48,734 bases of DNA from a virus. Taxonomy: Duplodnaviria; Heunggongvirae; Uroviricota; Caudoviricetes. The number at the start of each line of letters is the position of its first letter. Positions within the stretch are counted from its first letter, which is position 1. Where the stretch lies: IMG/VR virus record IMGVR_UViG_2703718802_000011. One strand, written 5' to 3'. Position numbers and translations under genes: made by a program. Under the pieces are notes generated by a model. It did no database searches. It was not told where the DNA came from and saw only the letters and a program-made list of their open reading frames with translations. Shown here in pieces: positions 3,712 through 5,819 of the stretch.

Positions 3712-4764
3712 ATGTTACGAAAAAGCAAACTTACAGAGATATATAAAAGGTTTGGTTTTACTGAAGAAAATACAGGTAACGAAAGTATTGCTGTATATTC
3801 TATTAAAACAGGGCACTACCATAACGCGGACATACTTCCACTAAATAATGAGGTTAATGTAAATCAAACCTTTGAAGAATATAGGCAGTTAGGTTATGCA
3901 TGTCAAATTAAAAAATATCAGTCTTATGAAGAAGCACATAAGGAATTATTTAATGGCTTCTTTAGCGTCGATTCAACTAAAGAAAGGTTGATTAAAGATT
4001 ATAATACTTTCACAGATTCAATTGTAAAAATTCACTCACCTACTGCAACTTATTCCTACATAAATTCAAAATATTACTTAAATGGTGTTATTGGCGAAGC
4101 TAATGTTGTTACGGAAATATTAGAGAGAATACAACATAGGCGTCCAATTCTGTTTTTGATTGAGGCTGCAGCCGGTTTTGGAAAGACTTGCACGGCGTAT
4201 GAATTATTGAGGGAGATTATAGTTAACAATATAGGGAAAATACCATTATTTTCAGAACTATCAAGGAATAGGCAAGCAAAAATATTCAGGTATGTACTAT
4301 TAGATGAAATTGATAGAAGTTTTCCTTTGTTAAGCTCAGCCTTAGTAAGGAATGAAATAAGAGCAGGAAATGTACCAGTTATACTTGACGGGTTTGATGA
4401 ACTATTGCATGAAAGTACAAACGGAATTGAAAATAATTATGAAAAAACAGAGCCAATGCTGGAAACAATAAGTGAGCTTCTAACTGATAGTGCAAAAGTG
4501 GTTTTGACAACTCGAAGAACAGCTATATTTGACGGAGATGAATTCCATCAGTGGATAGCATCACATCAAGAAGATTTTGATGTGATAAGAATAAGAATTC
4601 ATGAACCACAAATTGAAGACTGGCTTCCAGGTCAACGTTTAGATGAAATTTCATCGACAGGATTTCCTCTTAACAAATTATCAAACCCTGTACTGCTATC
4701 ATTTCTAAGATGCATCGACGACACCGACTTTAATAAAGTTATAAGCGACCCAACAACTATATAG
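3712..4764 (+). CDS. NACHT-like STAND P-loop NTPase, N-terminal part (Walker A/B plus TxR motif)
   Basis: AGGAGG at 3698-3703, ATG at 3712 (the track ORF begins at GTG 3703). Motifs 'EAAAGFGKT' (Walker A), 'VPVILDGFDELLHE' (hhhhDGhDE-type Walker B) and 'KVVLTTRRTA' (TxR) match the NACHT signature. Confidence 0.7.
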   Translation: MLRKSKLTEIYKRFGFTEENTGNESIAVYSIKTGHYHNADILPLNNEVNVNQTFEEYRQLGYACQIKKYQSYEEAHKELFNGFFSVDSTKERLIKDYNTFTDSIVKIHSPTATYSYINSKYYLNGVIGEANVVTEILERIQHRRPILFLIEAAAGFGKTCTAYELLREIIVNNIGKIPLFSELSRNRQAKIFRYVLLDEIDRSFPLLSSALVRNEIRAGNVPVILDGFDELLHESTNGIENNYEKTEPMLETISELLTDSAKVVLTTRRTAIFDGDEFHQWIASHQEDFDVIRIRIHEPQIEDWLPGQRLDEISSTGFPLNKLSNPVLLSFLRCIDDTDFNKVISDPTTI

Positions 4765-5819
4765 TGAGGAAGTATTTTGATTCAATGCTTGAGCGAGAAA
4801 GAAAAAGACAAGATTTATTAATGTCTATTGAAGATCAATATACTATACTAAAAATAATAGCTGACGACATGGTCGAGGGTAACTACACATCTGAGTCTAG
4901 AGAGTATATATCGTTAGTCATAACTGAAAAGAATCAACAACTCTTGGAGGCTACAAGAAAGCTTTATACTGTAGATGAAAGACCAACTACTGACGAATTA
5001 GTTAATAAATTAGCATCGCATGCTCTATTAGATCGGTCAGGCTCAGAAAACCAAGGTATTGGATTTGTTAATGAATTTGTTCTTGGTAATTTTGTTTCTG
5101 AAAATATTATTAATGATAAGTCAAATGAATGGATTGGTGATAAACGTTTTATAGAACCAGCAGTGCAATCTTATATGCCGAGGATCGATGATGAAAAAGA
5201 ATTACTTTGGCATAGCTTAGAGTTTGCTTTATATTTTATGTCAGGTAATGATAAAATCCTTTATAGTCATTTGCTTATAGGAAAAGTTCCATTAGATTTA
5301 AAAAATGATAGTGTTGAGCAATTGTCTATATCAAAACTTTCTTTAGGCGATATAAATATAATACATGATACTATCTTTGTTGATTGTTCGTTTTTTAGCA
5401 GCATATTTACCTGTGGTAATTATAAAAACGTTACATTCGTGAACTGTTCTTTTATAGATTGTAGTTTTAACGAATTAAGTGGTAGGGAAGATATTTATTT
5501 TTTGGGATGTGAATGTGACAATGATGCTATTAATAAAAAATCTGTCGAGATAAACAGTGAAAATGATCACGATATTACAGATTGTGATATTTACATCTTA
5601 GAGAAGTTCTGTCCCAGAGGGAGTGTTAGCTATCATAAGCATCGGCCTATAAAAGGCTTATGTTCTAACAACAATCAATTTCAGTTAAGTGAAATACTCC
5701 ATTCTTTAGATAAATTGAGGAAAGACGGTCTTTTACTTACGCCAGACAAGCGTTCGTTCCTTGAACTTAACATGGCAAGAATATCAGAGATTAAAGCAAT
5801 TCTTGGGAGGAATTTCTGA
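4764..5819 (+). CDS. STAND NTPase C-terminal helical region plus cysteine-rich pentapeptide-like repeat domain
   Basis: Starts at GTG 4764 overlapping the upstream TAG (alternative ATG at 4785). 'GFVNEFVLGNFV' resembles the NACHT helical-domain motif; repeats 'FVDCSF', 'FVNCSF', 'FIDCSF' at about aa 204-245. Reading frame differs from ORF1. Confidence 0.6.
   Translation: MRKYFDSMLERERKRQDLLMSIEDQYTILKIIADDMVEGNYTSESREYISLVITEKNQQLLEATRKLYTVDERPTTDELVNKLASHALLDRSGSENQGIGFVNEFVLGNFVSENIINDKSNEWIGDKRFIEPAVQSYMPRIDDEKELLWHSLEFALYFMSGNDKILYSHLLIGKVPLDLKNDSVEQLSISKLSLGDINIIHDTIFVDCSFFSSIFTCGNYKNVTFVNCSFIDCSFNELSGREDIYFLGCECDNDAINKKSVEINSENDHDITDCDIYILEKFCPRGSVSYHKHRPIKGLCSNNNQFQLSEILHSLDKLRKDGLLLTPDKRSFLELNMARISEIKAILGRNF

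What the first reader, a model, noticed from the sequence alone, without database searches (positions are those of the whole stretch)
4740..4790. NACHT module is split across two reading frames at a TAGTG junction
ORF1 (frame 1) carries Walker A/B and the TxR motif, while the expected continuation of the NACHT helical domain ('GFVNEFVLGNFV', about nt 5058-5099) lies in ORF2 in a different frame. The junction is TAG(4762-4764) overlapping GTG(4764-4766), with the first ATG at 4785. This is either a genuine two-polypeptide STAND architecture with translational coupling, or a frameshift (pseudogenisation or sequencing error) of a single approximately 700-aa protein.
Basis: partly seen in the sequence, partly recalled or inferred. 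Interest (0 to 1): 0.5.

Follow-up and report, generated by a model that had tools for sequence, protein, structure and literature searches.

The report
Frameshifted bacterial NLR-like defence gene
The "split" NACHT gene is one 701-residue E. coli immune-sensor gene broken by a 2-bp TA insertion, most likely the scar left when an IS2 element excised, so it is a recently inactivated gene and not a two-protein design.

Summary
ORF1 (3712-4764) ends at TAG 4762-4764, which overlaps GTG 4764-4766 of ORF2 (4764-5819). ORF1 plus ORF2, joined, equal exactly the 701-aa E. coli protein WP_000944877.1.

Over 3.2 kb the window differs from that intact allele only by an extra TA at 4758-4759, (TA)2 to (TA)3. 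Thirty-nine of 60 complete E. coli genomes that hold the gene carry it uninterrupted. More than 100 homologues, down to 46% identity, are single proteins of about 700 aa with no gap at the junction. The two-polypeptide reading is therefore refuted.

TAGTG is a by-product. The shift exposes an off-frame TAG, and the GTG is the conserved Val351 codon.

The insertion is probably real. The window's island shares a unique ParB frameshift with strain RM10410 only (1 of 621 genomes). RM10410 carries a 1331-bp IS2 at exactly this site. Deleting between the two CTATA repeats that flank that IS2 reproduces the window sequence.

The break lies between the helical domain and the winged helix of the NACHT module, so the sensor is probably dead. 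The downstream RelA/SpoT partner gene is intact. The family (NA-iREase2-NACHT-pentapeptide, clade 15) is already catalogued. This is an ordinary finding of low interest.

The parts
3699..3704 (+). Shine-Dalgarno AGGAGG of the NACHT gene, 7 nt upstream of ATG 3712
   Evidence: Duplex with the anti-SD is -14.6 kcal/mol. RefSeq starts the intact gene at the equivalent ATG.
3712..4764 (+). ORF1: codons 1-350 of the NACHT gene plus the premature TAG. It holds NA-iREase2 (1-~120), the nucleotide-binding domain with Walker A/B and TTRRT (125-296), and the short helical domain (301-343).
4757..4761 (+). CTATA: the 5-nt microhomology at which the two flanks of the RM10410 IS2 copy are joined in the window
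   Evidence: The BLAST pieces 3624-4761 and 4757-12834 overlap by exactly these 5 nt. In-silico deletion between the two CTATA copies reproduces the window.
4758..4759 (+). The lesion: 2 extra bases (TA), making TATATAG where intact alleles have TATAG. This is a +2 frameshift.
   Evidence: It is the only difference from the intact allele over 3600-6800. It is absent from all 57 complete genomes that cover the junction.
4762..4764 (+). Off-frame TAG brought into frame by the shift. The unrelated -1 allele stops at the same TAG.
4764..5819 (+). ORF2: codons 351-701 of the same gene. It holds the winged-helix part of the NACHT module, further helices, a pentapeptide beta-helix (533-600) and a C-terminal alpha/beta domain. 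The GTG is the conserved Val351 codon, not an evolved start. No usable SD lies upstream (-1.8 kcal/mol). ATG 4785 has a weak, distant GAGGA (-7.0 kcal/mol).
5819..6724 (+). Intact partner gene: a 301-aa RelA/SpoT (small-alarmone-synthetase-like) protein. Its start overlaps the NACHT stop (TGATG) and it has its own SD, GGGAGGA.
   Evidence: Pfam RelA_SpoT 3e-15. Similar to RelP/RelQ structures. Identical to WP_000282312.1. SD -10.2 kcal/mol. The pairing is conserved in Vibrio, Pseudomonas and Idiomarina.

Best explanation
Window 3712-5819 is one gene for a 701-aa bacterial NLR-related protein. Its order is an inactive REase-fold N-terminal domain, the NACHT NTPase module, a pentapeptide-repeat beta-helix and a C-terminal alpha/beta domain. 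It forms a conserved two-gene cassette with a RelA/SpoT-like enzyme (5819-6724). The cassette sits on an ssrA-linked mobilisable island.

In this strain the gene carries a 2-bp TA insertion at 4758-4759. The +2 shift brings the off-frame TAG at 4762 into frame, so translation from ATG 3712 stops after residue 350, between the helical domain and the winged helix of the NACHT module. The remaining 351 codons stay open behind a GTG that is merely the Val351 codon. That is why the locus looks like two overlapping genes.

Shown: the lesion, the single-gene state of all relatives, and the position of the break in the fold.

Inferred (about 0.7): the TA is the scar of an IS2 element that sat at TATAG, as it still does in the sister island of strain RM10410. 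It was removed by a deletion between the two 5-nt CTATA repeats instead of the two TATAG target duplications.

Inferred: the sensor is non-functional. The N-terminal fragment lacks the winged helix and the sensor, and the C-terminal fragment has no ribosome-binding site of its own. The RelA/SpoT gene can still be translated from its own SD.
For: (1) The window and the intact allele differ only by the TA over 3.2 kb. ORF1+ORF2 equal WP_000944877.1 exactly.
(2) Forty-five of 57 complete E. coli genomes covering the junction have TATAG, and none has TATATAG. Thirty-nine of 60 carry an uninterrupted 2106-nt gene. The intact protein is on at least 1000 contigs.
(3) Homologues of 46-89% identity are 696-737 aa, 99-100% covered, with no gap in columns 340-362 of a 67-sequence alignment. 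V351, Y354, F355, R361, E362, R365 and Q366 are conserved across the junction. A Yersinia plasmid copy at 75% DNA identity is one ORF across the junction. Five of 6 metagenome contigs have a 2136-nt open frame there.
(4) The AF2 model and Foldseek (NLRP2, NLRC4, Avs4; E 1e-8 to 2e-7) place the break inside the NBD-HD-WHD unit.
(5) IS2 origin. The window's ParB -1 frameshift (8174) is shared with RM10410 alone among 621 genomes. The two islands differ by 1 SNP in 8 kb. RM10410 has a 1331-bp IS2 with a TATAG duplication at exactly this site. Deleting between the flanking CTATA copies gives the window sequence. IS3-family elements are known to excise, precisely or otherwise, using microhomologies of 4-6 nt (10.1101/2023.06.07.543989).
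(6) The cassette partner is conserved.
Against: The +TA allele was found in only one assembly (GCA_001607125.1, identical to the window), and there are no reads to confirm it. The same sequence could arise by simple (TA)2 to (TA)3 slippage, and excision was not observed. No IS2 copy lies inside the window, and the rest of that genome was not available. Loss of function is inferred, not measured. A stop codon overlapping a GTG can allow some re-initiation, and separately expressed NLR fragments can sometimes complement each other (own knowledge: plant Rx).
Confidence: 0.9

Rival explanations
1. Genuine two-polypeptide STAND architecture. The NTPase half and the winged-helix/sensor half are separate subunits made by translational coupling at TAGTG.
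For: The stop and the GTG overlap. The natural NACHT-to-RelA/SpoT junction is a similar TGATG overlap. A second allele (-1) with the same TAGTG is on 537 contigs.
Against: Every homologue examined outside the two frameshift alleles is one gene. The split differs from the intact E. coli allele by a single 2-bp indel. The GTG is a conserved internal Val codon with no SD. The break falls at the start of a helix inside the NACHT module, not in a linker.
Confidence: 0.02
2. Sequencing or assembly artefact. The strain really has TATAG, or still has IS2 there and the assembler joined the flanks.
For: Only one assembly shows the allele. There were 0 hits in the metagenome and species-representative genome scans.
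Against: The only other indel in the 12.8-kb island (ParB -1) is confirmed by the independent complete genome RM10410, so the assembly is not indel-noisy. A 2-bp insertion outside a homopolymer is an unusual error. Joining contigs over a 5-nt overlap is not what assemblers do (own knowledge).
Confidence: 0.07
3. A real frameshift that arose by ordinary replication slippage, (TA)2 to (TA)3, in an intact gene, independently of IS2. This is a rival only for the origin of the lesion.
For: The product is a one-unit expansion of a dinucleotide repeat. The gene decays often and in several ways.
Against: It requires two independent hits on the same 5 bp of a 2106-nt gene in two sister islands that alone share a ParB lesion among 621 genomes. 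A two-unit repeat is a poor slippage substrate (own knowledge).
Confidence: 0.25
4. A lesion, but a tolerated one. Ribosomes re-initiate at GTG 4764 or ATG 4785, and the two fragments reassemble into a working sensor.
For: No residue is lost or changed. The -1 allele with the same junction is common (537 contigs, 12 complete genomes). Disruptions cluster near this boundary.
Against: There is no SD at the GTG, and a weak one 15 nt from ATG 4785. The cut is inside the NBD-HD-WHD unit whose intramolecular contacts control NLR activation (Kibby et al.). The locus shows many other plainly destructive lesions, consistent with loss rather than remodelling.
Confidence: 0.07

Closest known systems
E. 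coli WP_000944877.1, 'NACHT domain-containing protein' (701 aa), with its partner WP_000282312.1 (RelA/SpoT domain protein)
   Same: Identical protein sequence when ORF1 and ORF2 are joined, an identical partner gene, and the same island next to ssrA.
   Different: The window has 2 extra bases (TA) at 4758-4759 that split the reading frame.
[quoted passage not shown] V. cholerae WP_142737953.1)
   Same: The same domain order and size. NA-iREase2 lies at about 4-125, NACHT at about 127-446 and the pentapeptide at about 554-585.
   Different: None of the NA-iREase2 members was tested in that study; the tested clade-15 proteins were bNACHT09, 34 and 69. The downstream RelA/SpoT partner is not described there beyond a general mention of alarmone synthetases as NACHT-associated effectors.
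Animal NLRs (NLRC4, NLRP2) and the bacterial Avs4
   Same: The predicted NBD-helical-winged-helix core matches them by Foldseek, E 1e-8 to 2e-7.
   Different: About 10% identity and TM-scores of 0.2-0.26 over the whole chains. The sensor domain differs (pentapeptide beta-helix instead of LRR/TPR), and the putative effector is encoded in trans.
Small alarmone synthetases RelP/RelQ, and toxic SAS (toxSAS, CapRel) enzymes
   Same: ORF3 matches the RelA_SpoT synthetase fold (Pfam 3e-15; PDB 6ewz RelP, 2e-5).
   Different: It has an extra C-terminal region of about 140 aa with no match. The product or substrate is unknown. No toxSAS-specific test was made.
Excision of IS3-family insertion sequences via short homologies (IEE review, 10.1101/2023.06.07.543989)
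   Same: IS2 is annotated as an IS3-family element. The window equals the RM10410 allele minus the segment between two 5-nt repeats.
   Different: Excision was not observed here. Whether the strain has IEE or an active IS2 transposase is unknown. The scar is +2 bp rather than a precise restoration.

Membership tests
NACHT / STAND NTPase | Walker A (GxxxxGK[ST]) and Walker B (hhhhDxxDE) motifs | tested here: met
   AAAGFGKT 152-159 and VILDGFDEL 223-231. G155, G157, K158, T159, D226, D229 and E230 are invariant in 67 sequences.
NACHT / STAND NTPase | Pfam NACHT model (PF05729) at or above the gathering score | tested here: not met
   ORF1 scores 19.1 bits against a cut-off of 26.7 (E 0.0013). 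Several homologues carry a precomputed PF05729 hit. RefSeq names the intact protein 'NACHT domain-containing protein'.
NACHT / STAND NTPase | NBD followed by a helical domain and a winged helix; fold similarity to solved NLRs | tested here: met
   AF2 model with pLDDT 84.5. The top Foldseek PDB hits are NLRP2, NLRC4/NAIP and Avs4, probability 1.00.
Clade 15 NA-iREase2+NACHT+Pentapeptide (Kibby et al.) | N-terminal NA-iREase2 domain | tested here: met
   PF22723, 117.4 bits, E 6e-34, residues 6-123.
Clade 15 NA-iREase2+NACHT+Pentapeptide (Kibby et al.) | C-terminal pentapeptide repeats | tested here: inconclusive
   Pfam Pentapeptide_4 scores 19.2 bits, below the cut-off of 38. The AF2 model shows a run of short strands at 533-600, as in a beta-helix. 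Some homologues have a precomputed PF13599 hit.
Clade 15 NA-iREase2+NACHT+Pentapeptide (Kibby et al.) | Placement in clade 15 by phylogeny | not tested
   This is inferred from the shared architecture with the V. cholerae entry in Table S1. No tree was built.
Naturally split, translationally coupled two-gene STAND | The gene boundary is conserved in diverged homologues | tested here: not met
   All diverged homologues are single ORFs with no gap at the junction.
Naturally split, translationally coupled two-gene STAND | The downstream ORF has its own initiation signals | tested here: not met
   GTG 4764: -1.8 kcal/mol. ATG 4785: -7.0 kcal/mol with about 15-nt spacing. ATG 4821: -0.9 kcal/mol.
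IS2 (IS3 family) excision scar | A closely related allele carries the IS at the same site with its target duplication | tested here: met
   RM10410 has a 1331-bp IS2 flanked by TATAG at the junction. Its island is the sister of the window's (unique shared ParB -1, 1 of 621; 1 SNP in 8 kb).
IS2 (IS3 family) excision scar | The scar is explained by recombination between short repeats at the IS ends | tested here: met
   CTATA/CTATA flank the IS. The in-silico deletion equals the window.
IS2 (IS3 family) excision scar | Order of events (insertion before the window lineage split off); excision activity in the strain | not testable with these tools
   This needs whole-genome phylogeny of the two strains and of the isolates whose contigs end at ...ACTATA(G), and an excision assay.
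RelA/SpoT-type effector (toxSAS-like) | RelA_SpoT synthetase domain | tested here: met
   PF04607, 56.8 bits. Matches RelP/RelQ structures.
RelA/SpoT-type effector (toxSAS-like) | Toxicity, and the nucleotide or tRNA substrate | not testable with these tools
   No biochemical evidence. The PADLOC and NCBIfam hits are weak (PDC-S33 8e-5; AbiGI 0.0045).

The most novel reading that the evidence does not exclude
The break at the helical-domain/winged-helix boundary is not neutral decay. On this reading, alleles that end at the same off-frame TAG and restart at the overlapping GTG still make both halves by termination-reinitiation. These are the window's +TA allele and the common -1 allele (12 complete genomes, 537 contigs). 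The halves would then reassemble into a working, or differently regulated, two-chain NLR-like sensor. That would explain why about half of the independent disruptions of this gene fall within about 80 nt of this boundary.
Probability: 0.06. Interest if true: 0.55.

Novelty: already known. Interest (0 to 1): 0.15.

Why it matters
Practically, it corrects the annotation. The two 'hypothetical proteins' in this strain, and in the many isolates with the -1 allele, are halves of one NACHT gene, and this copy should not be counted as a working defence system. It is also a clean natural example of a defence gene on a mobile island being knocked out. About a third of complete genomes carry a broken copy. 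The example also shows that an IS element can leave a 2-bp frameshift scar that looks like ordinary slippage once the IS has gone. Neither point changes current understanding. The NA-iREase2-NACHT-pentapeptide plus RelA/SpoT cassette itself remains experimentally untested and is the more interesting object.

Tried and rejected
PADLOC and NCBIfam gave no meaningful hit for either half; only weak AbiO, GajB, HalA and Qnr matches.

Full-text searches for 'NA-iREase2' and for the assembly accession LOGY00000000 found nothing. The 2026 STAND survey (PMC13581612) and Kaur et al. 2021 do not mention this architecture with RelA/SpoT.

The exact-sequence look-up of the 350-aa ORF1 at first seemed to show the +TA allele in five assemblies. 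Three of the four places shown are contigs that simply end at ...ACTATA(G), probably at an IS2 copy. They are not evidence for the TA insertion. The look-up of the 351-aa ORF2 returned only -1 alleles.

I considered that the 100% match of RM10410 to 'CTATATAG' meant it shared the TA insertion. It does not. The CTA belongs to the IS2 end.

Scans of metagenome contigs and species-representative genomes for the +TA junction found nothing.

I did not try to model the RelA/SpoT protein or a complex.
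Full report
**1. The observation**

The sequence is as described. TAG lies at 4762-4764, GTG at 4764-4766 and ATG at 4785-4787. ORF1 runs 3703/3712..4764, ORF2 runs 4764..5819 in another frame, and a third ORF runs 5819..6724.
- ORF1 has a strong NA-iREase2 hit (PF22723, 6e-34) and a sub-threshold NACHT hit.
- ORF2 has only weak pentapeptide-repeat hits.
- ORF3 is a RelA_SpoT domain protein (3e-15).

The real start of ORF1 is ATG 3712, behind AGGAGG.

**2. One gene or two**

In complete E. coli genomes the same DNA is annotated as a single 2106-nt gene, WP_000944877.1 ('NACHT domain-containing protein', 701 aa), followed by the RelA/SpoT gene. 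Over window 3600-6800 the only difference from that allele is two extra bases, TA, at 4758-4759. This makes TATATAG where the others have TATAG. Joining ORF1 and ORF2 gives the 701-aa protein exactly; no residue is lost or changed.

Counts in complete E. coli genomes:
- Of 57 genomes that cover a 300-nt junction probe, 45 have the intact junction and 12 have a different lesion (a missing A at window 4752). None has the window's TA.
- Thirty-nine of 60 genomes that hold the gene have it uninterrupted.
- The intact protein is on at least 1000 contigs of the large collection.

More distant relatives agree.
- A search with the intact protein returned 1630 hits. The best 120, from 89% down to 46% identity (Citrobacter, Morganellaceae, Pectobacterium, Vibrio, Photobacterium, Pseudomonas, Cellvibrio, Idiomarina), are almost all 696-737 aa and cover 99-100% of the query.
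- In a 67-sequence alignment there is not one gap between residues 340 and 362. The residues just after the junction (V351, Y354, F355, M358, E360, R361, E362, R365, Q366) are among the best conserved of the protein.
- A Yersinia plasmid copy at 75% DNA identity is one ORF across the junction.
- Five of six metagenome contigs carrying the intact junction have a 2136-nt open frame there.

**3. Why it looks like a coupled pair**

The cassette is 32% GC, and the gene has 56 and 103 stop codons in its two other frames. Any frameshift is therefore stopped within a few codons. A +2 (or -1) shift in gene nt 1034-1048 ends at the TAG inside ACTATAGTG. The G of that TAG is the first base of the Val351 codon GTG. 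The -1 allele ends at the same TAG (…DPQL*) and shows the same TAGTG. There is no SD before the GTG (-1.8 kcal/mol), and only a weak, distant one before ATG 4785.

**4. Where the break falls**

An AlphaFold2 model of the 89%-identical, equally long Citrobacter protein (pLDDT 84.5) gives these regions:

| Residues | Region |
|---|---|
| 1-~120 | NA-iREase2 |
| 125-296 | Nucleotide-binding domain |
| 301-343 | Short helical domain |
| 347-365 | Long helix |
| 477-522 | More helices |
| 533-600 | Beta-helix |
| 623-696 | C-terminal alpha/beta domain |

. The best PDB matches are NLRP2, NLRC4/NAIP and Avs4. In Kibby et al. the NACHT module of the V. cholerae relative is drawn as residues 127-446.

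**5. Is the TA real, and where did it come from**

The window is identical over 7 kb to contig LOGY01000100.1 of GCA_001607125.1. That is the only assembly in which I found the allele.

Compared with the island of strain FDAARGOS_1248, the window's 12.8-kb island has 6 SNPs and two indels. One indel is the TA. The other is a missing A at 8174 that splits a ParB gene. That ParB lesion is also present in the complete genome of strain RM10410, and in no other of 621 complete genomes holding that segment. Window and RM10410 differ by one SNP over 8 kb of island. They are sister islands, and the assembly is not indel-noisy.

RM10410 has a 1331-bp IS2 inserted exactly at the junction, flanked by the 5-bp duplication TATAG. 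The IS2 end is …CTA, so the insertion is also flanked by a second 5-nt repeat, CTATA.
- Deleting between the TATAG copies restores the gene.
- Deleting between the CTATA copies gives CAACTATATAGTGAGG, which is the window sequence, verified over 1 kb.

The two BLAST pieces of the window against RM10410 overlap by exactly CTATA. RM10410 cannot descend from the window allele, because its left junction lacks the extra TA. IS3-family elements are known to be excised, precisely and otherwise, through microhomologies of 4-6 nt (10.1101/2023.06.07.543989).

I therefore read the TA as an IS2 excision scar, with probability about 0.7. Simple (TA)2 to (TA)3 slippage is the main alternative, and an assembly artefact is a minor one.

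**6. What the locus is and does (inferred)**

The gene of about 700 aa and the RelA/SpoT gene of about 300 aa travel together, abutting or overlapping, in unrelated neighbourhoods in Vibrio, Pseudomonas and Idiomarina. Here they sit on an island with relaxase, ParB, recombinase and integrase genes next to ssrA.

By analogy with tested bacterial NACHT proteins (Kibby et al.), the following steps are likely:
- The C-terminal repeats sense a phage cue.
- The NTPase module switches and oligomerises.
- An effector is activated, here presumably the RelA/SpoT-like enzyme, because the N-terminal REase fold is catalytically inactive by its family definition.

ORF3 resembles the small alarmone synthetases RelP/RelQ. 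No member of this architecture was among the proteins tested by Kibby et al.. In the window the sensor gene is broken and the effector gene is intact with its own SD.

**7. Context: a decaying gene**

Twenty-one of 60 complete genomes have a broken copy. The lesions, in gene nt, are:
- the -1 allele at nt 1041 (12 genomes);
- IS2 at nt 1049;
- IS3 at nt 1090 (2 genomes);
- IS66 at about nt 665;
- a deletion to nt 715 (3 genomes);
- IS3 at about nt 2052;
- one copy with small deletions.

Protein records add breaks at about residues 93, 372 and 540. About half of these events lie between gene nt 1041 and 1117. I could not explain this and did not test it properly. The RelA/SpoT gene is also hit in some strains where the NACHT gene is intact.

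**8. Verdict**

The cause is a frameshift lesion in a known, catalogued family, and it is not a new architecture. Interest is low.

Noticed in passing
window 8174 (ORFs 7777-8139 and 8136-8672, minus strand): A second frameshift in the same island. A ParB/RepB gene (298 aa in other strains) is split by loss of one A (CTTCATTTTCC to CTTCTTTTCC). Among 621 complete E. coli genomes with this segment, only RM10410 shares it.
   Followed up: yes
window 4752 equivalent; L003 (TUM3755), L013-L017: A different, common frameshift allele of the same gene. Loss of one A in CCCAACAAC, 6 nt upstream of the window's lesion, ends at the same TAG (…DPQL*) and gives the same TAGTG overlap. It is in 12 complete genomes (mostly from chickens) and on 537 contigs.
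   Followed up: partly
gene nt 1041-1117 = window 4752-4830: Independent disruptions of this gene cluster near the helical-domain/winged-helix boundary. They are the -1 at 1041, IS2 at 1049, IS3 at 1090 (ML35, FJ_Ec_21) and a break near 1117 (P0133/P0129). Only about five other events lie elsewhere in the 2106 nt. Chance, IS target preference and selection were not distinguished.
   Followed up: partly
window 12835-47673: A P2-like prophage of about 35 kb (terminase, P2-family capsid, portal, replication endonuclease) lies between the island and ssrA. It is absent from FDAARGOS_1248 and RM10410. The 46 nt at 12788-12834 repeat the 3' end of ssrA, so two elements sit in tandem at ssrA.
   Followed up: partly
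window 3624-3632: In RM10410 an ISVsa5 (IS4 family) element is inserted here with a 9-bp target duplication, about 80 nt upstream of the NACHT start codon. The window has no trace of it.
   Followed up: no
window 5904 and 6080 equivalents (L004, L002): The RelA/SpoT partner gene is itself damaged in some strains whose NACHT gene is intact. ETEC4090 has +T at 5904. Strain 300709 has G to T at 6080, and the gene is annotated there as two short CDSs.
   Followed up: no
window 2600-3056, minus strand: A DUF4928 gene just upstream of the cassette is fragmentary. RefSeq annotates one short CDS plus a partial pseudogene in related genomes.
   Followed up: no
window 3712-6724 versus 47674-48734: The cassette is 32% GC and the island 36%, against 51% for the adjacent core genes. 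This is consistent with recent horizontal acquisition.
   Followed up: no
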